A stretch of 64,000 bases of DNA, taken from NCBI GenBank assembly GCA_000002445.1, contig CH464492.1:1-64000 (forward strand), written 5' to 3'. This document shows positions 1 through 41,984 of the stretch, one piece after another. Source of the stretch: Trypanosoma brucei. Its lineage: Eukaryota. A program made the translations under genes and the position numbers. The notes beneath the pieces are model-generated. The model did not search any database. It was not told the DNA's origin and worked only from the letters and a program-made list of their open reading frames with translations. Positions within the stretch are counted from its first letter, which is position 1, and each line of letters starts with the position of its first letter.

Positions 1-1078
1 GGTGGGAGAGCTCAATTCCTGCTCCATGGTGTTGACGTTCTTCTCTATACCAATGTTGACGCATAGCTCGTTAACCTTCAAACGGAAATATCCTCCAATT
101 AGCTTTTAGCCATGCGTACATGGGCTATCGAAGCCGCGGGCAACTCATTGCATCTGTGTCGTCTACAACGATAACTTCGAACAATATGTGATGGTGATCG
201 CTATCGGGAGAATACAGCGATGTCCACGTGTACACTGTGCAATACCTTGACAGCTGTCCATCATGGGTGGACTCCCCGTGGTGGCACGCGTACCTCGAGC
301 ACTCACCAGTGTTGCAAACCATAAACTGGTTGTCAATGCACCACTGTGTGAGGGTTTCACCCTTGGTATTCGGTGGGCTCGCGCGATCCCATGCCAACGC
401 GTGTGCGTTAGCGTCTGCACCGATGAGCTGGGCACCGTCAGTCGTCAGAAGCGTATCTAGGTCAGTTGCCGTGAATGTGTGTTTTGGTGGGATGTATGCC
501 GACGTGAAGGTCACCGCCTTTCCATGTGTAAGGTGAATTGTTGCATGCACTTGTTCAATGCGACCAACAACGGCCATACCGGTCTCGACTGGTAGGTCCT
601 CCCTCACTAGTATTGATACACCACCTCCTTTGCAGTTACGAGCTATTCCGTGATGTTGGTAGCCATCAACGCTAAAGCAAGCGGCTTCTCAAGGCGTCAT
701 CCTTGTCTCGCTCAACAGACAAAAGGCGATCCGCTCATCAACAAGGGTTTTGTGGAGTGCTAATCTCTTTCCTTGAGATAGCCCGGCGCAGTTCCACTGC
801 ATCCCGCGCAACGACAGGCCGGGATTCTCTTCCACATCACCGGACAGCAGCATCTTAGTGCGGATGATACTGCTGATGGCACGCTGGCACGTGCTCAGGG
901 ACCGACAAATGAAAAAGTGTGTGTCCCAGCAAGACGCTTCTGATCCCTGTGCTGTATGATGCCGTAGCCGGAGCAAAGCAGTGTTCCCCATGAAAGGAAC
1001 GCTGCTGGCTCTTGGCTTCCCCCGATGATACGGGGTACTGGACCCTGGCACCACGTTGAGGTGGCCGGCATCGCCAGG
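1..1078 (-). mobile_element. ingi: ingi/RIME non-LTR retrotransposon, 5' portion (element continues beyond window start)
   Basis: Minus-strand ORF 689..1375 contains LLSGDVEENPGLSLRGMQWNCAGLSQGKRLALHKTLVDE (2A-like peptide plus the ingi ORF N-terminus). ORF 125..607(-) is the APE-like region. The minus-strand terminus at 1078->1021 reads CCCCTGGCGATGCCGGCCACCTCAACGTGGTGCCAGGGTCCAGTACCCCGTATCATCGGGGG, the canonical RIME/ingi 5' end. The block is nearly identical to 34078-34908 and 57067-57916. Confidence 0.9.
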
Positions 1079-1700
1079 GGGTGCAAAGGTAGACAACCAG
1101 CAGACGGTCACGTCACAATGGGCCGCCCTAAAAGCCTCGTGCGCGCTAAACGACGACAACAGCATCACGGCGCACGAACTAACGGCAGCACTAACGGCTT
1201 GGTACGGCATTCTAACACAAGAAGGAGCAGCAAGTGACAACAGCGTCTGGATCGGCAAAAGCAGCAACACAGGGAGCGAATGCGCCGGGACGGCCGGCAA
1301 CACCTGCGTCGAGTACACAAACTTTTTCAAGAAGTCATCAACAACGACACACGAAACACAGCCGTGGTACAACAAGATGCGCCAAGCAGCAGTAGCAATT
1401 GAAAAAAGAGCGCTGCAGCAAGCTCAAGAAAGCCTCTACGCAGCAACGATAGAAACAACTTACGCAAAAGCAATAGCAGTCTACCAGGCGGCAGTTATAG
1501 GCAAACTGGTCCCACCCCTGTCGCAGGCACAGGCCCAAACAGAGCAAAAGGGCGCGGGAAACCCACAGAAATAACAAGCCATTTTCACCGCACACAAAAA
1601 CAACAAAGCTGCTTGTATTGATGCTAACTGCATATGGAAAGGTGGGGAAAGCGGGAAAGGGGAGTGCGAAATAGATAAAAACCAATTTCAGAGCAGTTAA
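1079..1700 (+). pseudogene. VSG fragment (mid N-domain to C-terminus) starting exactly at the ingi 5' end; in-frame TAA at 1572-1574; no hydrophobic GPI signal
   Basis: ORF 1056..1574 is Ala/Thr/Gln-rich N-domain-like sequence (…CAGTAGNTCVEYTNFF…). The same frame continues past the stop as …CIDANCIWKGGESGKGECEIDKNQFQSS*, a CKWEG-type C-terminal motif. It abuts the ingi terminus at 1078/1079. Confidence 0.65.
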
Positions 1701-2179
1701 ATGCGGTAGCAGAAGATGGAGAAAGCAGAGACAACAGCTATAAAAAAGTACAAAGAAAATTAGAATTAGACTGTGCCAAGGCTCTTGGCTGAAAATAGAA
1801 AAATAATGCTTTTAAAAACTCGACCATTCTCGTAAATAAAAAAATTGCTCTTTTCTCACCAAAATTTGTAGTTTAGGTAGAATTTTAGTATTCTAGAACT
1901 CTAAGGATTTTTGCTAAATTTTATAATAATTATGAAATTTTTTTAGATCCTTTTCTAAATATACTATGATTTGATATATTTTAAGACTATTAAATTCAAA
2001 TATTAAAATTAGTGAAAACCATGATAACTAAAAAAAAAATTTTTAAAGTTTGCAATTTGGTATTAATGTACCGTGTGGTTCAACAGCAGTATGGATAATG
2101 GTATGACAAGTTAGTGTTATTCTAATTTACTTTATTTTGTTTATTTAAGTCACTTATGGATACTTGTTAGCATTAAAAT

Positions 2180-2250
2180 AGTGATGTAACGATAATGATA
2201 GGAGAGTGTTGTGAGTGTATGCATATACTACTGTTATAATATGAGTTTTT
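2180..2250 (+). repeat. 70-bp repeat unit (VSG upstream recombination repeat)
   Basis: GTGATGTAACGATAATGATAGGAGAGTGTTGTGAGTGTATGCATATACTACTGTTATAATATGAG matches the TRR/GT-rich/AT-rich architecture of the other units in the window. Confidence 0.7.
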
Positions 2251-3559
2251 GTAGGGAACAATTCGAGGAGAAAAAGAGAAGTCTTTAAAGTAATGAAAAG
2301 GAATGAATTAGAGGAAGTGAATGGGTGGCTTGTTGAGTTATAGGGGAGAAATAAAATTGAATATGCACATTTTCAAATACAAAAAAATGACTGTAAACGT
2401 CATCATATACAAGGAAATATGTGGGGATAAAAGGAGAGAGAGAATAACATATTCAGTCGCATGAAATTGCTACTTTCTTCGAAGTGATGGCGGACGTACA
2501 TTTAGAATATAATGAAATACAGAGAGAAAAAAGTGAATGTGCGGCAAATCAAAGAACAGAAAAAATAATACAGGCTGAGATCGTACCACATATTTCACTG
2601 TATAATGGATAGATGTGACAAATGAAATTATAATAGTGACTGTAGTTTCAAATATGATAGTGGATATTGATTTCAAGCAGTAAAAAAATTCAAAATCATG
2701 AATAATGAGTTCTGTTAGTCAGAAATAATGTCCAAATTTTCTTCTTATCAGATATATTTCTAACGGCAAACATTTACGTCATACAATAAAATATAGCTGC
2801 GAGTGAAATTTTAAAACTGGAACTACTAATGTATTATCGACGTTTAAAAAAGCATGAAGACGCTGAAACTGCTGAAAATAGAACATATATGAAAGGATAG
2901 TAGAATACTATGAAGTACAAAAGTTTGTAATGATACTCTTTCAACTTCTTGCTGATATACTAAGGAGACACTAAGAACTTCCAAGGAACGAGTAATAAAT
3001 ATAAAGAGCTGGTAATGGTGAGTTGGTGGCGCGTATCAGTAAAGCAAAAACAACAAAAAAAGAAATTTCAGACTCCAATTCGCCAGATTTGATCGTCATT
3101 TCCACACAGCGAAACAAAATAATCAAAACCAGGAACAAATGGTCAATCATATGCTGGAGCAACAGCAATGCCATCTTCTTATTCGGAGTTAAAATGAGAA
3201 CTACAAATTAACAAATTAGAGAAAACAGCGAAAACAAAAATTTTAAGTGTTTATATATATATATATATTATAGGTTATATTTAAGACGTTAAATTGATAA
3301 GCTAAAAGTACGCTTTTTACTACAAATAGTCAACTGAGGATGTACGGCACACTTTTCTTTTTTTCAAACAATAAGCACCTTAAAACAAAAAACCTAAGGC
3401 GGCCACGAGACTGACAAAGAAAGACAAAAGTTAACCTGGATGAAATTCACTTTTGAAAAATCGCAGTTTAGAGAAAGTCCAGCAACTAAACACTAAAGTA
3501 AAAAAAAACTCAACTTAGTTCCAGGAGACTAAACGCTAACTCAGAAAGTTACACGGAAC

Positions 3560-4965
3560 ATACGCACCTCTGCATGAAAGAACAGACGGCAAACTCCTTC
3601 CTGAAATTTTAAGCAAAGAAAAATTGAAGAATAAACTAGCAATAGCAGTGGTCACTTTAATTGCGTCGTTTCGAGTAGTAAAGGCACAGCAACCCGCTCA
3701 AGCATGTAAGAGCGTCTGCGGCTGTGCTTACCGAGTAGAGTGAAGAGCAAAGCACTACATTGACGAGCTTGAAAATGCCAAAGCCGGACTCAAGGCGCTG
3801 AAAAGGCAATTATTAGCAGCAATAATAGCCGCGAACACGGGCACGGAGCTGAACAGGCAGCGCACCGTGCCAATTGTAGCAGCGGGAGCAGCTTTAGTAA
3901 GAGACTGCGAACAAGAAAAATCAAACAAAGAAACAGTCACAGCAAAATTAACTAATGCGTCGGCGGCTGCAGCGGCTTTACTCCGTGGCTTACACTACAT
4001 TAGCAAGTCAACACGAATTTACCACCTAACCTGTACGTCAGACTTAAACTTCAACACCGCGGCAAAAACGGCAGCAAATTCCGCTGAACTCAAAACACAC
4101 ATCGCCTGCAACGAACAGCTAACAGAAGATAAAGACATCGACGACAGGGATCCAAACGCGGCGGAGCCCGAAATCCCAGACCTCCTCATCAAGGTGAATG
4201 TCACGAATGATTGCTTATCAGCAAGCACGCCAACAAACTGCGGCGCAAACGACGTAACATCCAGCACGCAGCTGAAGTTCGGACTAAATTTAACAAAAGG
4301 CGCCGCGGCTGACAGCGACAATTTTGCAACAGCCTGGGGAGCGCCGTTAAAAGTAACGGCAGCAGACTTTAAACTTGCAACCCAAGCAATAGTAGACGCC
4401 AATGCGGCATTACAAGAGGCGAAAGAGGCACAAACAGTCATCGCGTGCAACAAAATACTGGCAAACTACGGAGATGTAGCAAGTACAAGCGACTACAGAC
4501 TATTCGTACTAAAAGTCTTAGGAGGTAAACCAATGGCGGAAAAAATCGAAGCAGCAGACGAAACTCTAATAGACACCGCAATCCAACAATCCTACGGCAA
4601 AGCAGGAGAAACCTACGAAGCAGAGTACTGGAAAGAGGTAGAAGCAACGCCAGTACCCAAGGGAGATGGCAAATCTGAAATAAAAGAGGAAGTGAAGAAA
4701 CTCCAAACAACGGCTTCGCGTGGTGCAGGGTTAGCGAGGATTTTTCTAAAAACACAAGTCCAGAAACAGGAACAAGAAAAAGAAAGCAAAAAAGTTAAAG
4801 AAACGAAATCACCAGATTGCAGCAGCAAAAAGGGAATTGAGTGTACGGGAGAATGCGAACTGGTAGAGGGAGCTTGCAAACCAACACAGAAGAGGGATGT
4901 AGAAGAGAAAGTTAAAGGTGGAAAAGAAGGAACAAAAATACAACAAGGAGAAATTTCTTTGTGAT
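3560..4965 (+). pseudogene. VSG-like pseudogene (signal-peptide-like start interrupted by stop; atypical C-terminus)
   Basis: Upstream frame reads …AIAVVTLIASFRVVKAQ… followed by stops. ORF 3867..4964 is an Ala/Thr-rich surface-glycoprotein-like N-domain. It ends …CSSKKGIECTGECELVEGACKP… with a degenerate hydrophobic tail in another frame. It is followed by a 16-mer-like TTGATGTATTTTAACAT and a 70-bp repeat. Confidence 0.55.
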
Positions 4966-10324: not shown

Positions 10325-11866
10325 ATGCTCTCGGATACCGCCCCGGTTACAGCAGCTAGCGTCTTACTCGTCTTTGTTCTACAGCCCAAGGCAGAGGCGG
10401 CACCAGGGGAGGAGCTGGAAAATGCACCGGCTTTCTTCGCCCTCTGCAACGTCATACGCCAATGTCAGAGGGGTTTCACAGCACAAGCTGTAGAACTTGC
10501 GGAAGCAGCTGAAGCAGCATATAACAGCATACTGGCAGCGGAACATTTAGCAAGTACCAACAACAGCTATGTACTTGAAAAAATATTAGCCCAAGAAAAT
10601 GGCCTTAGAAAGGACCTCAAACCGTTGCCTGTGACGCCATTCGGCATAACGGCTCGGAAGCTGATAAACGATACAGCCGCAAAAGCCAAAGAAACTAAAA
10701 ATGCACTGGACGCAGCGGCGAAAGCAGCGAAGGACGAAGCGGCCGCAGCAAACAAATTGCTCGCAGCGGCAATAACAGGCGACGGCGAACTGAGGGACGA
10801 CCAAGACGACGGCAGTGGCTATTTTACGGCCGCAACAGCTAGTAAGATGTTCGGCACGGGGGCGAGCCAAAACGAAAATTGCGGCGGCAGCGGCGGTAAT
10901 GGCAATAACTTAGGTATCTCGATTATCAACGATCTGTTCTGTATTTGTGTGCGCGGCACTACAGGCAACAAAAAGGTCTGCCACGCAACCGCGACAGCCA
11001 AAGCAAGCGGCGCACACGACTTCACCAACAGCGGCAATAACAACAAAAACGCGTACGCAGCGTTGATGGCACAGTGCCCAAAGACGCTAAGGACGGTGAC
11101 GCCAGCATCGCTAGAAGCAGCCATCGCTGGATATAACAATCAGATAGGGACTCTGGTACACACCGTAAGTGGTAGCCACGAAGACGCCGGCTACATAGTA
11201 GGCTACGCCCACACAGGCAGCAAACGCTGCGAGGGAACCAACAGCCAAGTATGCATCAATTACAAAAAGCTGCTAGACAAAAAAGACGCAGCAGCAATAC
11301 CCTGGCAAGTAAAAATAGGTCAAGCAATAGAGAAACGACCCAGCAGCGCCGTCGTTCAAGAAATCAAGGCAGGGACCCAAACACTGGCCCATATGAACCT
11401 AACAGTCTGGCAGATCTACTACTCAGCACTCAGCCACACAGAAACCCAAGGCGACCACTCACCCAAATTACTGGATAGCAAAAAATTCGAAGAATGCAAG
11501 GAGCACAAACCAAAAAAGACGTGTAAAGAAAAGGGTTGCAAATGGGAAGAAAAAAATGAAACAGATGGAACATGCAAACCTAAAGCAGCAACAGAAAACA
11601 CAGCGGGAGCAGGAGAAGGAGCTGCAGGAGAACAAAAGAAAGAGGAGAAATGCAAAGGGAAATTGGAACCCGAATGCACCAAGGCTCCTGAATGCAAATG
11701 GGAAGGAAGAGCGTGCAAAGATTTCAGCCTTTATTTAATTAAACAATTTGCATTAATTTCCTCTGTTTTTATAAGTTTGTTAGGGGTTTTAGCATTTTTA
11801 AGAATTTTTCCTCAAATATATGAAATTTACGAACTCATGAAGATTTGGTATTTTGATACAATTTGA
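10325..11866 (+). CDS. VSG: Variant surface glycoprotein (a-type N-domain), 513 aa; ORF reads through the normal GPI-signal stop (atypical C-terminal extension)
   Basis: [25 protein letters not shown] signal peptide; N-domain cysteines; C-terminal …[43 protein letters not shown]… then about 30 extra residues; 70-bp repeat upstream and AT-rich 3' flank. Confidence 0.8.
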
Positions 11867-16537: not shown

Positions 16538-18091
16538 ATGCAAGCCATTCAAGACTCAACAATTAAGATGTGCAAACAACTGATGCTCTTGCTGATCTTG
16601 TGTTCGATTCCGCCATCGGGAGCCAACGTCGGAGAAGCGGATAATTTAGCTGTTTTCGCAGCGGTTTGTGAGTTGTTCCAGATCGCTGAGGGGGAACTTC
16701 CTCCGGACGAACAGGTGACAGATTCAGCAAACGCCGTCCGCCAGCTCGAAGCACTCAACATGTCCGTAGCAGAGGACAAGTGGCGCCAGCAGTTCTACAA
16801 AGGCAACTACGAAAAGATATCCTGGCAGGAAGCCAAAGATGCAGGCCTTTCGCCACACGAAAGCTGGAAAACGAAATGGGAACGATGGCAGCAGGCGGCA
16901 CTCAGCACCAAACCGGAAGCCGAGCCCGGAAAAACCATAGCAGACCAAGGCTTCAATGAGTTAACGGGAATTTCCAAAAAAGCAGTCCAAGCAAAAGTAG
17001 CAGCGCTGCTGGCCAAAGTCGGACACCTGGAAGCCGAACGCGCCACAGCAGAACAAGAAATAATAAGCGCGAGCAACGCAGAGTTGAGCAAAAAACTAAA
17101 CAAAGCGTTATACGGAGTCGAAACTGGGAGAGGCGACTTCGGTAAAACAGCTGGAGCAACGGGGGCAGCGAAAACACTGGATGCGTGTAGCACGGCTGGA
17201 ACCATCGACAACCAACAACCACTAGCATATGTTATGATGTGCCTTTGTCTAGAAACAGGGTCGACCAAAACCGGCAAGATCTGTGCAAAAGACCACGCAC
17301 TAACCAAGGCATGGAACGATGCAAACCCAAAAGTCAAGCAAGCATTCGACGACATGCGCAACTTGTGCCCGAGCGGGAAAAAGACGCCAATAACAGCATA
17401 CCAGATACGGAAAGCACTCTCAGCAGTACAGGCCTTCATACGAATGCACAGCGGCACCGGCTATCTAGGAGGGTTCAACAGCGGGAGCTGCAACGGGAAT
17501 GTCGCTAACGGCATATGCGTAAAATACGACCACAAAATAACAGCCGGCGCAAACGGTTTCACAGAACTAACGTACGCCGCCAACATGCTGGAAGCGGCTA
17601 GTCTGCTAGAAAACAGGCAACACGCGGTTCAAAAAGCCAACCAACTGGCACACGCGATCAACGCAGAAGCTTCAGCAGCGTGGCTAATATCGAAAGAAGT
17701 GGAAGCACTGCAGAAACTGGAAAGGGCAGCGGCAGCACAGGTGCCAACCACCAGCCAGGCACCAGGGACAAGCAAGCAACCATCGGTGGAGGAACAAAAT
17801 AAATGCAAAAATGCTACCAATAAAACAGCGGAAGGATGCTCGGCTATCAACTGCGACTTCGACAACGAAAAAAAGGAATGCAAACCTAAAGATGGGGAAG
17901 GACAGACAAGCACAGCAACAGGAGAGCAAGCTACAGGAGCAGATGCCAAAAAGTGCTCCGATAAGAAAAAACAAGAAGACTGTAAAGATGGCTGCAAATG
18001 GGATGGAAAAGAATGCAAAGATTCTTCTATTCTAGCAAACAAACAATTCGCCCTAATGCTTTCTGCTGAATTTGTGGCCTTGCTGTTTTAA
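16538..18091 (+). CDS. VSG: Variant surface glycoprotein, intact (b-type N-domain), canonical GPI signal
   Basis: Signal peptide MCKQLMLLLILCSIPPSGANVG (the true start is probably the Met at 16568). Contains …YLGGFNSGSCNGNVANGICVKYD…. C-terminus …CKDGCKWDGKECKDSSILANKQFALMLSAEFVALLF*. Perfect 16-mer in the 3'UTR. Confidence 0.88.
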   Translation: MQAIQDSTIKMCKQLMLLLILCSIPPSGANVGEADNLAVFAAVCELFQIAEGELPPDEQVTDSANAVRQLEALNMSVAEDKWRQQFYKGNYEKISWQEAKDAGLSPHESWKTKWERWQQAALSTKPEAEPGKTIADQGFNELTGISKKAVQAKVAALLAKVGHLEAERATAEQEIISASNAELSKKLNKALYGVETGRGDFGKTAGATGAAKTLDACSTAGTIDNQQPLAYVMMCLCLETGSTKTGKICAKDHALTKAWNDANPKVKQAFDDMRNLCPSGKKTPITAYQIRKALSAVQAFIRMHSGTGYLGGFNSGSCNGNVANGICVKYDHKITAGANGFTELTYAANMLEAASLLENRQHAVQKANQLAHAINAEASAAWLISKEVEALQKLERAAAAQVPTTSQAPGTSKQPSVEEQNKCKNATNKTAEGCSAINCDFDNEKKECKPKDGEGQTSTATGEQATGADAKKCSDKKKQEDCKDGCKWDGKECKDSSILANKQFALMLSAEFVALLF

Positions 18092-18289: not shown

Positions 18290-18345
18290 AGGGAGGTAGG
18301 GGGTTAGGGTTAGTGTTATGGTTAGCGTTAGGGTTAGGGTTTTAA
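18290..18345 (+). repeat. Interstitial telomere-like hexamer tract (degenerate TTAGGG x about 7)
   Basis: GGTAGGGGGTTAGGGTTAGTGTTATGGTTAGCGTTAGGGTTAGGGTT, about 200 bp downstream of the VSG stop. Confidence 0.85.
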
Positions 18346-21084: not shown

Positions 21085-22825
21085 CTGCACACCCTGGTGA
21101 TGCTGGCTCCATCAAGGTGGTGTCAGAGTCCAGTACCCCGTCTCATCGGGGGAAGCCAAGAGCCAGCAGCGTTCTTCTCATGGGGAACAATGCTTTGCTT
21201 CGGCTACAGCGTCATACAGCACAGGGATCAGAAGCGTCTTTCTGGGACACCGTCTTTTATTTATCGGTCCCTGGGCACGTGGCTAGCGTGCCATCAGCAG
21301 TATCACCCGCGCATGCTGCAGAACTTGGGGTGGTGCCTGAAATTTCACCCTATAACCCCTGCCCCCTCCACCGAAGTCGTATGTGCTCATTGTCTGTAAC
21401 AAATCCTATGGAAACAAAGGAGGGCTCACATGGCACAAAACTCGATGCCTTCACGGCAAAACGAGAAAGTTAGACGATGAAATGTCGGAGAAGCGGAAAG
21501 AAGATGAAAATATCAAACAGCACAAATGGGTTTGCGCAGAACGTGGCTTTCAATCCAAGAGTGCAGGTGTACTAACATTGCGCAGGCCACAGAAACACTA
21601 CATGACCAACGACAGTCCCTTTCCACCCCACACTGGCGGAACCATAATCCACACTGAATATGATTAAAAAAACACACTCCAGTGAGGAATCTGTGGGTTC
21701 AAATTGATTTAGCAGAGAGGCTCGACAATACGTCATGGAATAAAGAGCAGAAGTCAGCTTTAGCACATCATTCCAGTGGTGGAGAAACGGCTAGGCACAC
21801 AAAGTGAAAACCGACCGCATCAACCCAACACCAATGAACAAAGTGATAACACCACCAGTTCAACCTCTGGAGAAAATGAAGCGATATATGGACCTCGCGG
21901 CTACATATTTCGCACAAAAAATGGACTAGTGATAAGTCACGGGATGAAATACTGCGAAGTGCAACCGCAAACGGGGTCGCGAGGAATAAAGAGGCAACGG
22001 GAACTCGAAGAGAATGCAAGTATTCCAACGAAGGGCTCCCGAGCGACGGAAACGAGAGGGCATCCACTGAACGACACAGTAGGCACATCTGAGCCGCTAC
22101 AATGCAGGCAATGCATCTTTGTATCACAATCAAAAGGGGGAACAACACCAAACACCAAGATTCAGCACCGCAGAGGCCATTCCCTGGAGAGTAACGCTGG
22201 TACAAAACGGAGCTGTTCCATCACAGAACAAGAGGTATCCCTCATTTGGAACACGGTAACTATAGGTCTAAATGATACCTGTTGCACGCAATGCCGTCAT
22301 ACGCATGTATCAAAAGACAGCCTGATGGAGCACTTCGGGGGAATGCATAGACAGCATCCCTTCTCCGTAGCAAAAGAATCTCCACCACCGCTCCGGAGCT
22401 TCAACGTCAGAGAGTTTCATCTACACTTCACGTTCGTAAACCGAAATAAGACGTCCCACTCAACATCAGGTTCATCTATACATCGCCATCAAAAACATGA
22501 AATCTGCGTTGAAAGGAAACATACACACTCCAACGAATGCGAAGGGAATCCCACCCACATACTCGTGCGCTCAAGCCTAAAGTGCTCCGCAGTTACTTCG
22601 GGCTTGAGGGCGAAAATATGCAGAAGACAGTGTTCACCAAGAACCTTGCACAATTCCTCCAAGAAATTGAGAAACCCCTCATTCTCTTCCAACATGTACT
22701 TTCTTCATTCGAGAGGAACACCCCTATAAAGGAGAATAGACTACACAAAAAGCTGCCCACTCCTCTGAATGAAAATGTAAACTCCACTATGCTCTTCTAC
22801 GTTTGGGTCAAAAAAAAAAAAAGAG
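21085..22825 (+). mobile_element. Degenerate ingi-related retroposon (DIRE/RIME-like), plus strand, ending in an A-run
   Basis: 21085-21370 aligns with divergence to the RIME/ingi 5' region (CCCTGGTGATGCTGGCTCCATCAAGGTGGTGTCAGAGTCCAGTACCCCGTCTCATCGGGGGAAGCCAAGAGCCAGCAGCGTTC…). Downstream ORFs carry Cys/His-rich zinc-finger-like motifs (CNKSYGNKGGLTWHKTRCLHG, CTQCRHTHVSKDSLMEHFGGMH). A(13) run at about 22810. Confidence 0.45.
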
Positions 22826-25343: not shown

Positions 25344-26995
25344 TACCTAGAATTTCCTAAACAGGACACAAAAAGTGAGAGATACGAGCATATCATACTC
25401 AGCAGCTATCAAAGACGTGCAATGAGAATTAACAAATAGCCCTCACAACACCGTCTAAAAACACACAAACAATATTTCTGAAAAAAGTATTTAACCAACT
25501 AGTACAGTGCGCTTCTTAACTGCAAATTCCTTATCATCTATAATACCAGTAGCAATGTCACCTTCGTATTTACCCACATCCTTCCTGAAGTATTTGCGTT
25601 CAATCATGTTTCAGGTCAGCATTCGTTTTATTTACTTCGGCTAGTAGAGTTGCTAAAGTGGCTGGTTTAGATTGCTTTATACCAACTATAGCGCATCCGC
25701 TAAGCATTGCCAGTTTTCCTGCACCAGCCAAAATTCGGCCTATGATGCACAGTAGAAGCGCACAACGGGTTTTCATTGCACAAACTCCGTGGCACACCGG
25801 TGCGCCAACATATTTTTGTACTCCTCATTTCCATTCCTTGTATCCTCGACATGTTTTTGAAGCAGAAGACTCATAAACATAATCCCCTCACCTACACGGT
25901 ACATTTGTATGCATCCCTTCGCACAAAGCGACCGACCTCACGTTCCGTACTGGAGTAATGTTATTGGACGGTAAAGCTTCTCATCACAGGAACAGGTGCT
26001 GCACACCGTGTTTAATGGCAATAGCATATCCGACACATGTTTGTGAAGGTGAAAACCACGTCAAACATGCAGAGATCTTTCTGCTTTCGCTTTACGAATG
26101 ATCCGTGCAATACAGTCAGACCATGGCACCACAGAAATTTGCGCGAGTGCAACCCGTCACGCCCTGTTTTTACTTCACATACGCGGCGCACACGCACATC
26201 CACACCTGCACGAGCGAGCACATCAAAAAAAAAGGAAAGATAATATCGTGACCACACATCGGTCGACATAACCGATGCATCCACTCATAGGTCGTACATT
26301 AGCGCGTGCCGGAGCAAGTATGCACTTATATTTGGGAATGGGAGTATGTATTAAAATGTAAAAATGCAATTGCTAAAGGGTGTAAATATCAATTTCGGCG
26401 TTGATGAGATTGTTATCGAATAGCAGTGATTTAAAGTTTTCGTGGATGGCATGGAAGTGAGAGCATAAATCCTCTACTTCGTTAACCGGGGGATAAAGAG
26501 CGGATGGCAGTAAAAAGGCAGCAAAGGACTTGATCAAAGGGATGACAATTTTGACAACGTAGATTTGGAGGATAAAACAATCACCGTCTCCCCTATCTCC
26601 GTTACTGCTCCATCGCAAAAGGTCTCCCACGTGGCCCTCGTATACTCACACGACAACCTATTCTTGTAATATTTACCCAATGACTAGCGCTTTGCTTTTA
26701 TTGCTTCTTAAATACTAACCGAGGGAAACTTAACCCTATGGAAAAATGCCACCCTAATCACCACCACTTCACTCCTCGTTGTACAGTTAACGTGGCTTGT
26801 CTCCAGTGTGGAGAAAATAGAAAAACTGGTGGAGCTATTACTAGACAAGGACGGTTCTGACACATAAATGTTTCATTAAACGTATACTTACAGTTAAAAA
26901 TACCCACGTTTCTTACTGAAATACAGACTTCAACTATTCTTCAAGTTAAACTTTATTCTCACACATTAGCTTTTCCAGGCCTTAACGTTGCATAT

Positions 26996-27771
26996 TTTTT
27001 TTTGAAATTTTCTTCGTGCCTTTGTAAGAGTTTCCCCCCACTGGCGCGGCCATCAGCCATCACCGTAGAGCCCTGAGATGCTATCGGTCTGGCGACTGTG
27101 GCAGAGTCTCCCTTTTTTGTTCAGCCTAACACACACTCTATAATTTTTTGTTGTAGCTCCGCAGATGAACGGAATACAGCAGATGGAGCAGAAAGCCCCC
27201 CACCCCTGACTCTCCAAAAGATGTCAATTAGCAATCCTTTTGTTTTGATTTTTGTTATTCGTTTATTATTCTCTCCCCCTCTTTCTGTTTTTGTTGCTTG
27301 TTGACTGCATACCCTCTCTGTCTCTGAGGGTGTCTGGACTATTCCTGCGTCCGGTGCTTTTCCTGCTAGCTCTACACTCTCGGCAATAAGGGGGGGAAGT
27401 TGCAGAATGGAGAGTGGGTTGTATGACTGTTACATTAGGTGAGGACTTCACCTGCGGCCGGCTCCGTTCAACCGCAATGAGAAACTGTGCCAGCCTTTTA
27501 GAGAAACATACATCCCGCACACACACACCTTCTACCGCAAACCTAACACGTAACTCCTTCAAACCGGGACAGCTCATCAAGTGCAGCGACGTTTCTTCGC
27601 AGTCGCCGCGTTGGCTGGTAACAGCGCACTCTACCTTCATACCGTGCATCTTCTTTTGATGTAGGGTGAGGCCAGTTTTGCTAGCACACTGCCTTCCGCA
27701 TGTCGGGCACACCAACATGGATGTGTTTGTATGCGGGGGAATCAGTGGGAAAACATTTTGTGCTTTTGCTG
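26996..27771 (-). mobile_element. ingi: ingi 3' end fragment (C2H2 zinc-finger region plus 3' RIME half plus poly(A)), cut off by an assembly gap
   Basis: TTTTTTTTTGAAATTTTCTTCGTGCC…CCACTGGCGCGGCCATCAGCCATCACCGTAGAGCCCTGAGATGCTATCGGTCTGGCGACTGTGGCAGAGTCTCCC is the reverse complement of the ingi 3' terminus. ORF 27266..27718(-) is MLVCPTCGRQCASKTGLTLHQKKMHG…. Nearly identical to 29641-30420 and 52665-53440. Confidence 0.85.
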
Positions 27772-27886
27772 NATTTAAGCTCGACTNNNNNNNNNNNNNN
27801 NNNNNNNNNNNNNNNNNNNNNNNNNNNNNNNNNNNNNNNNNNNNNNNNNNNNNNNNNNNNNNNNNNNNNNNNNNNNNNNNNNNNNN
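27772..27886. other. Assembly gap (N run)
   Basis: Run of n characters. Confidence 1.
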
Positions 27887-28602
27887 CAGACGCCCAACTT
27901 TTTAGCAGCAACGACCCGGCAGCAAGCTGCAGCGAAGCAACAGCGCCAGCCGGGACTGAACCACCAGGAAGCACAAAGCGGATAAAGCACACACTTTGCC
28001 AGGCGCTAAAAACATATAAAGCTTCCCTGGGAAGCACAGATGCGATTTCCGGCCAGGTACTTAAGCATAGCAACCTCGTGCTTAACTACCTAAGGAACTG
28101 CATCCCAAAGTACTCCAACATCAAAAAGCCTGAAGATGCAATAGAGGCGAAGGCTTTAATAGAATTTGTGGATAAAACATACGGCGAAAGCAACGAAAAG
28201 TTCAAAGAAATGTTCGTCACTCCACTCACAACAGCCAAGGCAGCAATTCGCTTGAATGAAAAAACAGAGCCGAAAGAAATCGCGAACATGGTGTCAGTGG
28301 AAGATAGAGCCGCAGCAATAAGCCACAATGAAGGTATGAGAAACGCCAAGGAACTTGAAGCCGACAAGAAGAATACAGTAGCCACTCCAGCAACAGATCT
28401 GGCCAAAAAATCAGAGGATTGCAAAGGCGAAAAAGACGAAACTAAATGCAACAATAAGGGTGGATGCGAATTCAAAGATGGGGAGTGCAAAATCAAAGTG
28501 ACAACAGCAACAGAGACAAATGGCAAGACTACAAACACCACAGGAAGCAATTCTTTTTTCATTAAAACTTCCCCTCTTTTGCTTGCATTTTTGATTCTAT
28601 AA
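27887..28602 (+). pseudogene. VSG 3' half (C-terminal domain plus canonical GPI signal) beginning at the gap edge
   Basis: …DCKGEKDETKCNNKGGCEFKDGECKIKVTTATETNGKTTNTTGSNSFFIKTSPLLLAFLIL*. The upstream part is missing or hidden in the gap. Confidence 0.7.
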
Positions 28603-28915: not shown

Positions 28916-30097
28916 GGTGGTTGTACAAACCTAAAAGTTAAGAAAAATAGAATCACTTCAAACAATTGCATAGGCAAATGTGAATACGAGAGGGAGTGAG
29001 CAATGGAAGGGGAGAGGAAAGGAAATCGTGTATTTGCAGTGCCAAACTCAAAAACTTCGACAGTCATAGACTTACACATTGGGATAAAGATAATAAAGAA
29101 AAGGGAGTGGCATGGTTCAGTGTATATATTGATGAGATAGACATTTTCTCTGCAATGAAAGTAAAAGAAAGCTAAAAGAAAGGAAATAGTTTCGAGGGAA
29201 ATAAATGGATGAGCTAGACCACGGTGCAAACGCACATGATACAGGAGGCGCAAACATCGATATCAATTATTTTGCTTACAAGTAGAGAGATGGACATGCA
29301 GAGAAGAAAATAGTTGGACCGTAGTTTTTAGTCTGATGATGCAACACAACGTAAAATGTTGAGAACAGGGGGCGGCAATTGTTGAATGGATGAGGGATAT
29401 TTAGTGTCGCAAGGAATAAAGAAGTGGGACACAGGGAAAGAGAGAGTAGAGCCTATTTTGAACTTAATACGTAAACTAATTGAATACTATCAGCTATTAT
29501 CACTGGAGGATTTCCGTTTTCATTCGTATGTAAAACCTTGGCAAAACAACCACACCAGAGCTTTATAGGGGGAAAGTGTATCAAGGCAATTTTGTAGAAA
29601 AGAAAAAACCACAACCTTCATACACGAACCTAATTGTGCTGCAATACTTTTTTTTTTAAATTTTCTTCGTGCCTTCGTGAGAGTTTCCCCCCACTGGCGC
29701 GGCCATCAGCCATCACCGTAGAGCCCTGAGATGCTATCGGTCTGGCAACTGTGGTAGAGTCTCCCTTTTTTTATTCAGCCTAACACACTCTCTATAATTT
29801 TTGTTGTAGCTCCACAGTTGAACGGAATACAGCAGATGGGGCGAGAAGCCCCCCACCCCAGACTCTCCCAAAGATGTCAATTAGCAATCCTTTTGTTTTG
29901 ATTTTTGTTATTCGTTTATTATTCTCTCCCCCTCTTTCTGTTTGTGTTGCTTGTTGATTGCATACCTCCTCTGTCTCTGAGGGTGTCTGGACTATTCCTG
30001 CGTCCGGTGCTTTTCCTGCTAGCTACACTCTCGGCAATAAGGGGGGAAGTTGCAGAAGGGAGAGTGGGTTGTATGACTGTTACATTAGGTGAGGACT

Positions 30098-31636
30098 TCA
30101 CCTGCGGCCGGCTCCGTTCAACCGCAATGAGAAACTGTGCCAGCCTTTTAGAGAAACATATATCCTGCACACACACACACCTTCTACCGCAAACCCGACA
30201 CGTAACTCCTTCAAACTGGGACAGCTCATCAAGTGCAGCGACGTTTCTTCGCAGTCGCCGCGTTGGCTGGTAACAGCACGCTCTACCTTCATACCGTGCA
30301 TCTTCTTTTGATGTAGGGTGAGGCCAGTTTTGCTAGCACACTGCCTTCCGCATGTCGGGCACACCAACATGGATGTGTTTGTATGCGGGGAATCAGTGGC
30401 ACACAATTTTGTGCTTTTGCTGCATTTAAGCTCGACTCCCTCACCTTTGTGGAAAGCCTTACAGTGTCGGATGAGGGAGTTCCTGCAACTGAGCACTTTT
30501 TGGCACACACCACACTGCACCTCGCCTTTCCCCGGGACGTCAACGTTTCCCTCACGGGTACACTTACGAGGGAATTGCACCACCACCACGGTACCGTCCT
30601 CCGTCACTATGCTCTTATGCTTGAATTTCTTGTGTAGTGACAGGGAAGAGCGTGTACCGAAGCTCGCCTCGCACAGGTCACATTTAAACGGCAGCTTCCG
30701 TGTATCCTGAGAGGCTGGCGCTGCTGGGACGCTACCATCTCCTTGCACTGAGTCCTCGTTCTCTCGCCTCCTTTTCACGCGGCAACTACCGCTACCTATG
30801 CCATGTATTGTTCTAAGGTGGTGTAATAGTCGGCCTGGCACTGCGAATTTGGAGGCACATAGTGTACAATGAAGCACCTGCGGTCTCATCGGGACTCGTG
30901 TGCTCGATGGTAAAGGAACGATCGCCACCACTGGAGGGGGCTCCGGGGGGATATCCACTGCAGGTGTTACATCGTCGTATTTGATCCTCCGGAGGGCATC
31001 AGCTCGCACAAAGCCGTTTTTGTTTACCATATGCGTTACAGCACTCGAGCGGCATTGGTATGTGGTATCACATTCCGTACATTTGGTCGGTTCGGAGGTT
31101 CTCTGAAGAGTGCGTGTCGCAACAGTTGGGGTTGTTTGTGTTTGTATTGTTGGCCCTATCGCTGCATGTTTCTGGTTACACCATCGGCACTGTGGAGACA
31201 CACTCGGGTTGATCTTTCGCAACATCCATCCATAGTATCTTGAAGACCCAACACGAAAGCGTGCCAGTGCCGTTTCTTCTTCCCTCGTTAGTTCTTCTTT
31301 ATGTTTTGTTGGAAAGTGGTTGCCAGTGATACCAAACCTATGAGTGTTCTCATGGACTTCTTCCGACCTAAGCACTCGCTTCGCATAAGCAATGATGTCG
31401 GGGATCCATGTGTCTCGCAAGTGTGGTAAACCAGCGGCCTTTTTGGTCATGTCATCGCAAACCTCATTCCGTTTCACGCCACAATGGACGAACACAAATT
31501 GCAGTCGGATAAGCACCTTCCTTCTCTGAACTTGAAGCAGAAGCCTCCATAGTCGTCTCAGAATTGGGTCCGTTACGGCTAGGGGGCCTGTCTGCAGTGC
31601 TTTTAACATTGACAGCGAGTCAGAGAAAATAGACAA
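30098..31636 (-). CDS. ingi ORF segment: RNase H-like domain plus five C2H2 zinc fingers
   Basis: …FVHCGVKRNEVCDDMTKKAA… (RNase H motif); CTECDTTYQCRSSAVTHM; HCTLCASKFAVPGRLLHHLRTIH; FKCDLCEASFGTRSSLSLHKKFKH; CGVCQKVLSCRNSLIRHCKAFH; CPTCGRQCASKTGLTLHQKKMH. Confidence 0.85.
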   Translation of the reverse strand: MSIFSDSLSMLKALQTGPLAVTDPILRRLWRLLLQVQRRKVLIRLQFVFVHCGVKRNEVCDDMTKKAAGLPHLRDTWIPDIIAYAKRVLRSEEVHENTHRFGITGNHFPTKHKEELTREEETALARFRVGSSRYYGWMLRKINPSVSPQCRWCNQKHAAIGPTIQTQTTPTVATRTLQRTSEPTKCTECDTTYQCRSSAVTHMVNKNGFVRADALRRIKYDDVTPAVDIPPEPPPVVAIVPLPSSTRVPMRPQVLHCTLCASKFAVPGRLLHHLRTIHGIGSGSCRVKRRRENEDSVQGDGSVPAAPASQDTRKLPFKCDLCEASFGTRSSLSLHKKFKHKSIVTEDGTVVVVQFPRKCTREGNVDVPGKGEVQCGVCQKVLSCRNSLIRHCKAFHKGEGVELKCSKSTKLCATDSPHTNTSMLVCPTCGRQCASKTGLTLHQKKMHGMKVERAVTSQRGDCEETSLHLMSCPSLKELRVGFAVEGVCVCRIYVSLKGWHSFSLRLNGAGRR

Positions 31637-32400
31637 CCTGCTCGGTGTGCTTCTGCATACCGGAAGCCATTTCAGCAGCCGTTGCAGTCCTATCTCTAAT
31701 GCTACGCATTCCGCTCTGTAACTGCATGAGAGTTCCCCTGCTCCGGTCTTGGGTGCACGAATCAGCGCTCGCTTCTATAGAGCAGGGCAGCTGCCTCGGA
31801 CTTCTCACCGAGGGACACGGATCCATCAGTCCACAATTCGTAGTGCTCTCGCCGCGGTGGCTCCTTCCCCCTCCGTGCAAAATGCCGTTCAATCCACTTT
31901 TCGGAAGCCTCTCTTTTGGCATCGTCAGGGTCATCAGCGCACGCAGGCTTTATCTGCGTGTGAAATAGTGATCGGCAGCTGTGGCGGAGCGTCGATGTCT
32001 CTAGTAGGTGCTCGCGTGGCTCAATGCGGAGGTGAAGGTAAGACCGCATGGTGCGGGAATGTAGGGCTTTGACTAGATGTTTGCTGTGGTATACTTCCTC
32101 AGCACTGCGCCGCAAACATCCGCCTCGTGACTCACACATCAGCATGAATTTCATGCTGCGCACAAGAGTGGTCGTCTTGAGTGGCAGGAGGTTTGCCTCC
32201 AGCAGAGAGTCCTCTTTGCGCGTCCCATGGGGTATGCCAGCTATGATGCAACTGGCTTTGTGTTGTGCTGCTGAAAGGAGGTCCCGACTTCGTTCCGAAG
32301 CGTCCCAGTACCATACCTCAATGCCATACATGGTGTGTGCCTGTACGAGTGCTAGATAAAGAGCTCTCAACACTTGTCGTCTTGGCCCCCATGTAGAAGC

Positions 32401-34065
32401 TTATATGGCTGCTATCTGCAGTAGTCTGAAGTTCATCTTGCGTCTCGTTTCGGCCGCATGTGTTTCCATCCCTTGCAGACACTGGAATGTTACTCCTAGA
32501 AGCTTCGGTGTCCCGTCAGCTCCTATTCTTTCGCCGTCCAGTTGCAATGTAAGGGGGTGGCGCTCTGTACACCCGAAGAGTGTGCACTTTGTTTTCGCTA
32601 TATTGACAGACATGAAGTACTCTTTTGACCACTGTAACATCACGTTTAGGCCGCATTGTAGTGTGTGGTTGATGACATCCCTCTCTGTGTGCCTCGCAAG
32701 AGCGTCAGGTCGTCTGCAAAGAATCCGTGCTGCAGTAACGGCACTTCTGCAAGGCGTTGGCTCAACGAGTTCATGACAATAATGAACATGATTGGGCCAA
32801 GGACAGTTTCCTTGTGGCACTCCTCGCTCAAATGTTCTGCTGCTGGAAAGCTTCTCCTTGAATCTCACTCTGCCAGTTCGGTTACTCAGAAATGATACGC
32901 ACCACTTCACAATGTGGGGTGATACCTTCATTCTGTGCATTTCCCTCGCAATTTTGTCGTGGTCCACTGTATCAAATGCCTTCTCGTAGTCGACGAATAC
33001 AGCACCCGTACGATATTGGTGCGTGGGACGGCAGAGGGCAGCGCGGACGTGCAGGAGTTGTTCGAGTGTTGAGCATCCGGGGCAAAAGCCTGATTGCTGC
33101 GGCGTCAGCTGGGACTCAACAGTGTCTCTAAGTCTCGCGGCAATTATGCACTCCATGACTTTGCAGAGACAGCTCGTGAGCGTCACAGGCCTGTAAGAAT
33201 CGAGGTCCTCCCACTTTTTTCCGGCCTTCAGGATGGGGATGATAACACCAGTCTTCCATGCAGACGGCACGACTCCCGTTCGTAGGCTCTCATTGAATAG
33301 CCTCAGAACAACATTCAGTGCTGTTCTACCGAGATGTTGCAGTGCCTCGTTGTATAAGCAATCAGGTCCGGGTGCGGATCCACTCGGAAGCAGTTTGATC
33401 GATCTCCGTAGTTCAGCCATCGTGATGGGACTGAACTCACTCGCTATCGTCTTTATGGGTGCCGGTGGGTGTGAGTCGGGGTGCCTTCTTGCGCGGGACG
33501 AGTACAGTTTACTGAACCTCTCAGCTTGACGGTAGTCCGTGATGGCCGCGTTATCAACAAGCACAGCCGGTGTGGTTAGTGGTCGTGGTGCATATACCTT
33601 CTTGACAATGTGCCAACTGCAGCGGTCTGACACCGCAAGTCTGGAGCATAGCGTGCTCCATCTCTTCTTTGTGGTACGGTCCAGGATCTGCTTACGCGTG
33701 GCTACCAACTTTTCCCTTCTGTGGGAGGGTCCGCATCCAGCGATCTCTTCATCGAGTTTCGGGAGTGTATGTGTCCAATGTGGTGGCGTTGCTCTGCAGC
33801 CACGGGGGACGGAGACCTTCGTCGCAATGCGGATGGCGGAGCTCAATTTCTGTTCCAGGGTGTTGACGTTCTTCTCTCTACCAATTTTCCTGCAGAGCTC
33901 GTCAACCTTGAGACGGAAATTCCTCCAGTCAGCTTTTAGCCATGCGTACATGGGCTTTCGAAGCCGCGGGCAACTCAGTGCATCTGTGTCGTCTCCAACG
34001 ATAACGTCGAAAAATATGTGATGGTGATCGCTATCGGGAGAATACAGCGATGTCCACGTGTACAC
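32401..34065 (-). CDS. ingi ORF segment: reverse transcriptase domain
   Basis: …VFVDYEKAFDTVDHDKIAREMHRMKV… (RT motifs). The adjacent ORF 32646..32831(-) contains …HGFFADDLTLL… (YXDD-type active site). Confidence 0.85.
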   Translation of the reverse strand: MYTWTSLYSPDSDHHHIFFDVIVGDDTDALSCPRLRKPMYAWLKADWRNFRLKVDELCRKIGREKNVNTLEQKLSSAIRIATKVSVPRGCRATPPHWTHTLPKLDEEIAGCGPSHRREKLVATRKQILDRTTKKRWSTLCSRLAVSDRCSWHIVKKVYAPRPLTTPAVLVDNAAITDYRQAERFSKLYSSRARRHPDSHPPAPIKTIASEFSPITMAELRRSIKLLPSGSAPGPDCLYNEALQHLGRTALNVVLRLFNESLRTGVVPSAWKTGVIIPILKAGKKWEDLDSYRPVTLTSCLCKVMECIIAARLRDTVESQLTPQQSGFCPGCSTLEQLLHVRAALCRPTHQYRTGAVFVDYEKAFDTVDHDKIAREMHRMKVSPHIVKWCVSFLSNRTGRVRFKEKLSSSRTFERGVPQGNCPWPNHVHYCHELVEPTPCRSAVTAARILCRRPDALARHTERDVINHTLQCGLNVMLQWSKEYFMSVNIAKTKCTLFGCTERHPLTLQLDGERIGADGTPKLLGVTFQCLQGMETHAAETRRKMNFRLLQIAAI

Positions 34066-40335: not shown

Positions 40336-40699
40336 GGTTGAACGTTATGTAGATTACAGTGTGAAATGGCTTACTTGAGTGTATAAAAATAAATGAGTTG
40401 TTATGAGGTGGTTCTCCTCTCGTGTTGCCAGTTGCTACGTGGATCTTGGCAGTGATTGCCTTGCATCTATTCTTTTGTCTTCAACGATGTTGGTTGCTTC
40501 GCCTCGTTGATAAAGGCAATCACAGACCTATAATTTTTCTCCTTCAAAGAAATCCACTTCTATAAATATATCCCCAGAAACTTCCCGACACTCAAAATCC
40601 TATTTCCTTCCATCTATTATATACGTTTGAACTTTACCCTAAAATCTCTCAGGCTAAACTGCATCCTTTCCAATTACTTATACCAAGTAAGATTTTTCA

Positions 40700-41400: not shown

Positions 41401-41984
41401 AACAGCCACAAACGCTCTGTGATTCTTAGGTTGATTCTCTGTCACATTTGTTTTGTTATTTGCTTCATCTTGATGTGATATTGCACTTAAACACACTAAA
41501 TGTTATAGCAACATTAAGAGTAAAGTTCGCAAGACGCCGAATTTTACCTCCTAGGAAACTTTCAAAATTTGAAAAATATGTAATAAAAAAATAAATGGCT
41601 TAGGAAAAGGAGATATAACCACAAGGAGAATTTTAATTTTGAACAAGTTTCCAATTCTGATAAGAAAATATACTTCTCTGTTTCTAAATCTAAAATTTCA
41701 ACATTTATGGTCTGTAGTGGGCTCTTTTTTTTTTACTAACGTCACTACCCCATTTGACCTGTACACTAATATTATTATCTCCATTGCTGTTCTTTAAATA
41801 ATTTACATGAGGTAACAAGAGTGGCCATATTCACATTCTTTCTGAAATGCGCATGTCCCGTACCTTTTTCTTTCTCTCCCTGTCCGCTTACTTACTGTCT
41901 TTTTGCCTTGGCAATGGTATATCTGCTACTATTGCTACAGTCCATTTACTTTTAAACACTGTTTTTATTATAATTTTAGCATGC

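What the first reader, a model, noticed from the sequence alone, without database searches (positions are those of the whole stretch)
1000..1700. ingi 5' end abuts a VSG coding sequence: retrotransposon insertion inside a VSG
The canonical ingi 5' terminus ends at 1078. The very next base continues a VSG N-domain reading frame (…VDNQQTVTSQWAALKASCALNDDNSITAHELTAALTAWYG…) that runs on to a CIWKGGESGKGECE C-terminal motif. The upstream half of this VSG must lie beyond the other end of the ingi, outside the window. The VSG-derived remnant itself also carries an in-frame stop and lacks a GPI tail. Ingi usually targets RHS genes and intergenic sites, so an insertion within VSG coding sequence is less usual. 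It suggests ingi contributes directly to VSG pseudogenisation.
Basis: seen in the sequence. Interest (0 to 1): 0.5.

Follow-up and report, generated by a model that had tools for sequence, protein, structure and literature searches.

The report
Ingi retroposon splitting a VSG pseudogene
In a Trypanosoma brucei TREU927 surface-antigen gene array, the start of an ingi retroposon sits exactly in the middle of a variant surface glycoprotein (VSG) coding sequence. This is an ordinary insertion into a gene copy that carries other, ingi-independent defects.

Summary
An ingi element lies on the minus strand. Its canonical first base is at window 1079, not 1078, and its body runs off the window start. 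From base 1080 the plus strand reads the last third of a b-type VSG N-domain (Pfam VSG_B, E=9e-19, profile positions 236-351 of 352). This is followed by a TAA stop, a decayed C-terminal domain, an out-of-frame GPI-signal relic and the VSG 3'UTR 16-mer.

Two uninterrupted relatives read straight through the site. They are a T. equiperdum contig and EATRO1125 VSG 1125.1545. Similarity to them starts exactly at 1080, which corresponds to residue 240, so about 239 residues are missing. The 34 bases next to the ingi match the published Tbingi target-site signature at 6 of 10 positions in the exact register (background P=0.03). The junction is therefore most likely an original insertion junction.

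I could not read the other flank, so it is untested whether the missing half lies beyond the element. Both complete ingi copies in this window lack target-site duplications, so that is not assured. The C-terminal frameshift and stop codons are shared with the ingi-free relative. The ingi is therefore not the only cause of decay, and probably not the first.

This is an ordinary instance of known biology.

The parts
1..1079 (-). The 5' 1,079 nt of an ingi non-LTR retroposon (copy 1). The rest of the element, about 4.2 kb, lies upstream of the window. It includes the conserved 79-nt 5' signature at about 1001-1079. The copy is defective: it has two in-frame stops and a frameshift.
   Evidence: Exact 66-nt match to the ingi 5' end. 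Boundary fixed by the three-copy alignment. 95% identity to the full-length copy at 29649-34909. Stops and frameshift seen in the translation. 46 private differences in 1,079 nt.
125..607 (-). Remnant of the ingi endonuclease ORF (apurinic/apyrimidinic-type endonuclease domain).
   Evidence: Pfam Exo_endo_phos_2 (PF14529), E=1.2e-9, 38.5 bits against a cut-off of 27.4.
1080..1091 (+). Predicted 12-bp target-site duplication, GGTGCAAAGGTA (TACCTTTGCACC on the ingi strand). It encodes G-A-K-V of the VSG.
   Evidence: Inferred from the published 12-bp duplication and the signature register, and from the junction position. The second copy lies outside the window, so this is not verified.
1092..1113 (-). 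The 22 nt upstream of the predicted duplication, carrying the Tbingi (ingi4) target-site signature AxxxxxxxTxxxGTxGGxTxxx. It is read on the ingi strand, which is antisense to the VSG.
   Evidence: 6 of 10 specified positions match over the full 34 nt (1080-1113), and only in the exact register. Shifting by 1 or 2 nt gives 4 and 2 matches. The background frequency of 6 or more matches in this window is 0.029. The signature comes from PMC3820030.
1080..1571 (+). C-terminal third of a b-type VSG N-terminal domain, 164 codons. It corresponds to residue 240 onward of the uninterrupted relative VSG 1125.1545.
   Evidence: Pfam VSG_B, E=8.9e-19, profile positions 236-351 of 352. Relatives show 64-72% identity in the protein alignment (65-71% by BLASTP). 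DNA identity to T. equiperdum rises from 32% at 1040-1079 to 72% at 1080-1370 and 91.5% at 1371-1571.
1572..1574 (+). In-frame TAA stop. It is specific to this copy; the T. equiperdum relative has CAA (Gln) here.
1575..1700 (+). Remnant of the VSG C-terminal domain, with CIWKGGESGKGECE at 1629-1670. It ends at a TAA (1698-1700) that the T. equiperdum relative shares.
   Evidence: Pfam Trypan_glycop_C, E=0.0022, 18.8 bits, below the 21.4 cut-off. The shared ...NQFQSS* ending is seen.
1679..1873 (+). Frame-shifted continuation of the C-terminal domain (KPISEQLNAV...DCAKALG*K*KNNAFKNSTILVNKKIALFSPKFVV). The GPI-signal relic lies at 1808-1873. The frameshift and the two nonsense codons are shared with the relative. 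A 1-nt deletion is private to the window.
   Evidence: Three-frame translations of the window and L001, coordinates, DNA alignment.
1972..1987 (+). Conserved VSG 3'UTR 16-mer, TGATATATTTTAAGAC, with 1 mismatch to the consensus.
   Evidence: 9 matches in the window, all on the plus strand, against 0.09 expected. That this 16-mer is a VSG 3'UTR element is from my own knowledge.
2190..2250 (+). A single 70-bp-repeat-like unit (GATAATGATAGGAGAGTGTTGTGAGTGTATGCATATAC...). It marks the start of the next VSG cassette, so the fragment sits in normal array register.
   Evidence: Sequence read, compared by eye with the 70-bp-repeat consensus units found at 14.9-15.8 kb.

Best explanation
The window comes from a subtelomeric VSG array of Trypanosoma brucei brucei TREU927.

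A full-length ingi, an autonomous non-LTR retroposon, retrotransposed into the coding region of a b-type VSG array copy. It inserted antisense to the VSG, at the codon equivalent to residue 240, about two thirds of the way through the N-terminal domain. The mechanism is inferred from what is established for this element family:
1. The ingi-encoded endonuclease recognises a loose signature in the target DNA and nicks it.
2. The element RNA is reverse-transcribed from the nick (target-primed reverse transcription).
3. A second nick 12 bp away produces a 12-bp duplication, here predicted to be GGTGCAAAGGTA.

Because the 5' end is complete to its first base, 1079|1080 is the original 5' junction.

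What remains on this side is a dead 3' cassette. It comprises the last third of the N-domain, a decayed C-terminal domain, a GPI-signal relic and the 3'UTR. It carries further lesions that do not depend on the ingi, so the element most probably landed in, or simply adds to, an already defective archive copy.

Shown: the junction, the identity of both partners, the continuity of uninterrupted relatives across the site, and the shared C-terminal lesions.
Inferred: the insertion mechanism, the predicted duplication, and the order of events.
Unknown: whether the 5' half of the VSG still lies at the far end of the ingi.
For: - Source organism: window ORFs are identical to TREU927 proteins XP_828095.1 and XP_828097.1.
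- Ingi identity: exact 66-nt 5' end at 1014-1079; boundary defined by three copies; 95% identity over 1,072 nt to a 5.26-kb copy; endonuclease domain.
- VSG identity: VSG_B, E=9e-19, covering only profile positions 236-351 of 352.
- Uninterrupted relatives: the T. equiperdum contig CZPT02000620.1 (L001) has one open frame from MKKEQF... through ...GAFTGAEIASQATITTQW. EATRO1125 VSG 1125.1545 (P0011) reads ...GAFTGAEINNQATITTQW.
- Alignment puts the first window residue at column 240.
- DNA identity to L001 is 32% at 1040-1079 and 72% from 1080. The break therefore coincides to the base with ingi nucleotide 1.
- Target signature: 6 of 10 matches in the exact register, P=0.029. The other three ingi/RIME-like 5' flanks in the window score 5, 6 and 8 of 10.
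- Array register is normal: 3'UTR 16-mer at 1972 and a 70-bp unit at about 2200.
- Independent lesions are shared with the ingi-free relative: the same stop after NQFQSS, the same frameshift and the same ALG*K*K nonsense codons.
Against: - The far end of the ingi, with its poly(A) and second duplication copy, is outside the window and could not be fetched. Insertion rather than later juxtaposition is therefore not proven.
- The signature match is modest (6 of 10; 3% of random positions score as well).
- Both complete ingi copies in the window lack recognisable 12-bp duplications. Ingi flanks in this array are often rearranged.
- No TREU927 ORF corresponding to the missing N-terminal half was found in the protein collection. 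It is also not elsewhere in the 64 kb.
- The 3' part of the cassette (91-93% identical to L001) may have been homogenised by gene conversion. The order of C-terminal decay and ingi insertion therefore cannot be fixed.
Confidence: 0.7

Rival explanations
1. The 5' junction is an original insertion junction, but the element is now a chimera. Ectopic recombination or gene conversion between ingi copies has exchanged its 3' part and 3' flank. What lies beyond the far end is then not the matching half of this VSG. It could be unrelated array sequence or a different VSG.
For: Neither complete ingi copy in the window (29649-34909, 52659-57916) has a matching 12-bp duplication. PMC2854126 states that ingi and RIME sequences recombine and cause rearrangements. 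No ORF for the missing half was found among T. brucei proteins. A related T. brucei VSG ORF (P0002) ends ...YAKAI-FFFF-stop. This is what a poly(T) plus AAATTT ingi/RIME 3' end in this same orientation would encode, but at a different VSG position.
Against: There is no direct evidence for this locus. Pseudogene halves broken into short ORFs would be missing from protein collections anyway. The P0002 reading rests on five C-terminal residues only.
Confidence: 0.35
2. There was no insertion into the VSG. The ingi originally lay in non-coding DNA upstream of the VSG, and a later deletion or unequal recombination removed everything between it and the middle of the VSG.
For: Subtelomeric VSG arrays are recombination-prone. 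About a fifth of archive VSGs are fragments (my own recollection of the TREU927 genome paper, not checked here).
Against: A deletion would have to end exactly at nucleotide 1 of the ingi, which keeps its complete 5' signature. The flank carries the ingi target signature only in the exact register.
Confidence: 0.08
3. Assembly artefact: the contig joins an ingi read to an unrelated VSG read.
For: The window contains three 100-N gaps and one single N. One ingi 3' fragment (26995-27786) ends directly in a gap.
Against: There is no N run near 1079. The junction is a single uninterrupted sequence that one read would span. The target-signature register would not be expected from a chimeric join.
Confidence: 0.03

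Closest known systems
RHS (retrotransposon hot spot) pseudogenes of T. brucei, split by RIME/ingi insertions
   Same: An ingi-clade retroposon sits inside a subtelomeric multigene-family coding sequence. The gene is left in two halves flanking the element and is thereby a pseudogene (summarised in PMC7563717).
   Different: RHS genes carry one fixed hot-spot site used repeatedly. Here the site is a chance match to the loose ingi target signature inside a hypervariable VSG N-domain. The homologous site in the uninterrupted relative scores only 4 of 10. The second gene half was not seen here.
Ingi elements scattered through silent VSG arrays and expression sites
   Same: Same element, same genomic compartment. 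PMC3553974 describes ingi as present within subtelomeric VSG arrays. PMC2567434 records an ingi between the 70-bp repeats and the VSG in expression site BES2. The other two ingi copies in this window lie in VSG flanks, about 580 bp downstream of one VSG and about 540 bp upstream of another.
   Different: Those copies are described as lying in non-coding DNA. Copy 1 here cuts the coding sequence itself.
VSG gene fragments and pseudogenes of the silent archive
   Same: A 3' VSG cassette with a partial N-domain, a decayed C-terminal domain and a conserved 3'UTR, in normal array register. Such 3' segments can in principle still act as donors in segmental gene conversion (my own knowledge).
   Different: Here the cause of the 5' truncation can be assigned to a retroposon end rather than left unknown.

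Membership tests
Tbingi (ingi4 subclade non-LTR retroposon) | Conserved 76-79-nt 5' signature starting CCCTGGCG... | tested here: met
   Exact 66-nt match at 1014-1079 on the minus strand. Two further copies are in the window.
Tbingi (ingi4 subclade non-LTR retroposon) | Colinear similarity to a full-length element of about 5.2 kb that encodes endonuclease and reverse transcriptase | tested here: met
   95% identity over the 1,072 nt available to the 5.26-kb copy at 29649-34909. Exo_endo_phos_2 domain found. The reverse-transcriptase part lies outside the window.
Tbingi (ingi4 subclade non-LTR retroposon) | 3' poly(A) tail and flanking 12-bp target-site duplication | not testable with these tools
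   The 3' end lies about 4.2 kb beyond the window start. All attempts to fetch it failed.
Tbingi (ingi4 subclade non-LTR retroposon) | Target-site signature 5'-AxxxxxxxTxxxGTxGGxTxxx^xTxTxxTxxxxx-3' upstream of the element | tested here: inconclusive
   6 of 10 positions match, including G-22, G-19, G-18, T-16 and A-34, in the exact register only. Background P=0.029.
VSG, b-type N-terminal domain | Match to Pfam VSG_B above the curated cut-off | tested here: met
   68.4 bits against a cut-off of 25, E=8.9e-19. Only profile positions 236-351 of 352 are covered.
VSG, b-type N-terminal domain | Signal peptide and complete N-domain | tested here: not met
   About 239 residues are missing relative to P0011 and L001. 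They are not found elsewhere in the window.
VSG, b-type N-terminal domain | Intact C-terminal domain with an in-frame GPI-anchor signal | tested here: not met
   Trypan_glycop_C scores 18.8 bits, below the 21.4 cut-off. Stops lie at 1572 and 1698. The GPI relic at 1808-1873 is out of frame.
VSG, b-type N-terminal domain | Conserved 3'UTR 16-mer TGATATATTTTAACAC | tested here: met
   Found at 1972-1987 with 1 mismatch.
Retroposon-split gene (RHS-pseudogene-like arrangement) | Both halves of the same gene flank the element, colinear and sharing the duplicated target site | not testable with these tools
   Only the half next to the ingi 5' end is in the window.

The most novel reading that the evidence does not exclude
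VSG coding sequences of this b-type subfamily may be recurrent ingi/RIME targets. Two independent retroposon junctions would then exist in close relatives: the ingi 5' end here at residue 240, and a putative retroposon poly(T) 3' end after ...YAKAI in the related ORF P0002. Such retroposon ends could act as breakpoints or homology blocks that reshuffle VSG halves in the silent archive. On that reading, the far side of this ingi carries the 5' part of a different VSG.
Probability: 0.07. Interest if true: 0.45.

Novelty: new member of a known kind. Interest (0 to 1): 0.13.

Why it matters
It matters little beyond annotation. It gives a clean, base-resolved example of one way a VSG 'fragment' in the silent archive can arise. 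It also shows that the loose target preference of ingi can be met inside VSG coding sequence, not only in RHS genes and non-coding DNA.

It does not show that ingi drives VSG pseudogenisation, because this copy carries independent, shared lesions. A genome-wide count of ingi/RIME ends that abut VSG coding sequence would be needed before any general claim.

Tried and rejected
1. Extending upstream. The look-up of encoding contigs failed for five sequences: window ORFs 3867-4964 and 10325-11866, and P0004, P0006 and P0002. No TREU927 gene is on record there, although one search lists a 286,308-bp contig for P0004 and P0006.
2. Looking for an orthologous or empty-site locus through the neighbouring VSG (3867-4961). 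Only context-free VSG ORFs were returned.
3. Scanning metagenome and prokaryote genome collections for the exact junction. There were 0 hits, as expected for a trypanosome sequence.
4. Searching for the missing N-terminal half among T. brucei proteins, using the T. equiperdum N-domain as query. Only EATRO1125 VSG 1125.1545 was found. In the window, tblastn found only distant VSGs of 25-29% identity.
5. Using the other ingi copies as internal positive controls for 12-bp duplications. Neither complete copy has one, so they could not validate the expectation.
6. The apparent second 'ingi abutting a VSG ORF' at 26995-27786 / 27700-28602. I rejected it because the junction is a 100-N assembly gap.
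7. An Rfam scan of 1-3000 for a ribozyme or other RNA family at the ingi 5' end found nothing.
8. Literature. The library holds no paper that describes ingi inside VSG coding sequence. The original Tbingi site-specificity paper (Mol Biol Evol 2004) and the RHS paper (PMC118050) are not held. I took the signature from PMC3820030 instead.

Full report
**Source.** Several window ORFs are identical to deposited Trypanosoma brucei brucei TREU927 proteins. Window 16538-18088 equals XP_828095.1/EAN78983.1 and 50321-51880 equals XP_828097.1. Four shorter ORFs equal entries of a T. brucei VSG ORF set. The window is a subtelomeric silent VSG array. The VSG 3'UTR 16-mer occurs nine times, all on the plus strand, against 0.09 expected. 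Canonical 70-bp repeats lie at 14.9-15.8 kb. The window also holds three ingi copies.

**Is the ingi end there?** Yes. The 66-nt ingi 5' sequence CCCTGGCGATGCCGGCCACC... matches the minus strand at 1014-1079 without mismatch, and again at 34844-34909 and 57851-57916. In an alignment of the three copies with their flanks, similarity ends at CCCTGG in all three. The two G bases at 1080-1081 could formally belong to either side.
- Window 8-1079 is 95% identical to the complete 5.26-kb copy at 29649-34909.
- It encodes the expected endonuclease domain (PF14529, E=1.2e-9).
- The copy is dead. It has two in-frame stops and a frameshift within the first 1.08 kb. It has 46 private substitutions relative to the other two copies.

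**Is the VSG there?** Yes. Bases 1080-1571 translate to GAKVDNQQTVTSQWAALKASCALNDDNSITAHELTAALTAWYG....
- They hit Pfam VSG_B at E=8.9e-19, but only over profile positions 236-351 of 352.
- A TAA follows at 1572-1574. Then comes a 41-codon C-terminal-domain remnant containing CIWKGGESGKGECE (1629-1670). It scores below the Pfam cut-off. A second stop lies at 1698-1700.
- The 3'UTR 16-mer is at 1972-1987. A single 70-bp-repeat-like unit near 2200 opens the next cassette. The fragment therefore sits in normal array register.

**Does the ingi end fall inside a VSG?** I found uninterrupted relatives.
- The closest proteins are a T. equiperdum ORF (P0001, 65% identity) and a T. brucei ORF (P0002, 71%).
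- The T. equiperdum contig CZPT02000620.1 (L001) could be fetched. There, one frame runs from a signal peptide (MKKEQFNLLLFLLILG...) through the whole N-domain and across the site...CSGAFTGAEIASQATITTQWADLKASCALH....
- A search with that N-domain returned EATRO1125 VSG 1125.1545 (P0011), which also spans the site.
- In the protein alignment the first window residue is column 240, so about 239 residues are missing. This agrees with the Pfam coordinates.
- At DNA level, identity to L001 is 32% over 1040-1079, which is the ingi against VSG and amounts to noise. It is 72% over 1080-1370 and 91-93% from 1371 to 2060. The break therefore coincides to the base with ingi nucleotide 1.

**Insertion or later juxtaposition?** The published target signature for Tbingi/TbRIME-type elements is 5'-AxxxxxxxTxxxGTxGGxTxxx^xTxTxxTxxxxx-3'. 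The last 12 nt are the target-site duplication (PMC3820030).
- Read on the ingi strand, the flank ACGTGACCGTCTGCTGGTTGTC|TACCTTTGCACC matches 6 of the 10 specified positions. Shifting the register by 1 or 2 nt drops this to 4 and 2.
- 2.9% of all positions in the window score 6 or more.
- The other three ingi/RIME-like 5' flanks in the window score 5, 6 and 8, so the signature is visible in this data set.
- Together with a 5' end complete to its first base, this makes an original target-primed insertion junction the best reading.
- The predicted duplication is GGTGCAAAGGTA (1080-1091).
- The homologous site in the uninterrupted relative scores 4 of 10. The site is therefore a chance match in this copy, not a conserved hot spot.

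**What could not be shown.**
- Exact-product look-ups failed for every TREU927 protein tried.
- The neighbouring VSG gave only context-free relatives.
- Junction scans of the other collections found nothing.
- The missing half is not elsewhere in the 64 kb, and no T. brucei ORF for it was found.
- Neither of the two complete ingi copies in the window has a recognisable 12-bp duplication. Ingi and RIME are known to recombine (PMC2854126).
- I therefore put roughly even odds on the far flank being the colinear VSG half.

**Did the ingi cause the pseudogene?** Not on its own, and probably not first. The window copy and the ingi-free T. equiperdum copy share several lesions:
- the stop after ...NQFQSS;
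- the frameshift into KPISEQLNAV...;
- the two nonsense codons in ...CAKALG*K*K..., which look like former Cys and Trp codons.

These lesions were inherited or spread by gene conversion independently of the ingi. Only the TAA at 1572 and a 1-nt deletion near 1797-1798 (alignment column 760) are private to the window. The 3' part is much more similar between the two copies than the N-domain part. Conversion may therefore have occurred, and the order of events cannot be fixed.

**Comparison with what is known.** The arrangement works like the RIME/ingi-split RHS pseudogenes (PMC7563717). It differs in having no fixed hot spot. Ingi elements inside VSG arrays and expression sites are well documented and are described as lying in non-coding DNA (PMC3553974; PMC2567434). 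In this window two of the three ingi copies do lie in VSG flanks. An ingi that cuts VSG coding sequence is therefore a minority case. It is nevertheless an expected consequence of loose target specificity in a compartment dense with VSG sequence.

**Verdict.** This is an ordinary instance of known biology in a published genome. Interest is low.

Noticed in passing
window 29649-34909 and 52659-57916 (minus strand): Two complete ingi copies of about 5.26 kb, 94.6% identical to each other. Neither has a recognisable 12-bp target-site duplication. Copy 2 lies about 580 bp downstream of a minus-strand VSG (35495-36640). Copy 3 lies about 540 bp upstream of a plus-strand VSG that starts at 58456.
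   Followed up: partly
protein P0002 (UniProt A0A1V0FYR8, T. brucei); no genomic locus available: This close relative of the window VSG fragment ends ...ATIETTYAKAI-FFFF-stop. That is what a poly(T) run followed by AAATTT (an ingi/RIME 3' end in the same antisense orientation) would encode. It suggests a second retroposon-in-VSG junction in the same subfamily, at the position equivalent to window ~1483.
   Followed up: partly
window 26995-27886: An ingi 3' fragment (26995-27786, minus strand, 95% identity) ends in a 100-N assembly gap (27787-27886). The 300-aa ORF at 27700-28602 spans the gap and is an artefact of joining ingi antisense sequence to a VSG C-terminus. Further 100-N gaps lie at 43323-43422 and 44450-44549.
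   Followed up: yes
window 21092-21310 (plus strand): A diverged (87% identity) 220-nt ingi/RIME-type 5' end in the opposite orientation to the three ingi copies. It has the best target-signature match in the window (8 of 10). The sequence after it is not ingi-like, and the downstream 321-aa ORF (21764-22726) has no Pfam hit. It may be a degenerate ingi-related element.
   Followed up: partly
window 18301-18341: An interstitial telomere-like repeat, (GGGTTA) x 6.8, about 150 bp downstream of the 3'UTR 16-mer of the intact VSG at 16538-18091. A second 16-mer follows at 19083. This looks like the relic of a formerly telomeric VSG now internal to the array.
   Followed up: no
window 35495-45683: A block of minus-strand VSG genes or pseudogenes (35495-36640, 39103-40335, 44943-45683) lies inside an otherwise plus-strand array. 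It begins immediately beyond the 5' end of ingi copy 2, so there is a local strand switch next to a retroposon.
   Followed up: no
window 1371-2241 versus L001 10330-11183: The 3' part of the VSG cassette (end of the N-domain, C-terminal domain, 3'UTR and downstream sequence) is 91-93% identical between TREU927 and T. equiperdum. The adjacent N-domain part is only 72% identical. This mosaic pattern suggests segmental gene conversion of VSG 3' regions, including their inactivating mutations.
   Followed up: partly
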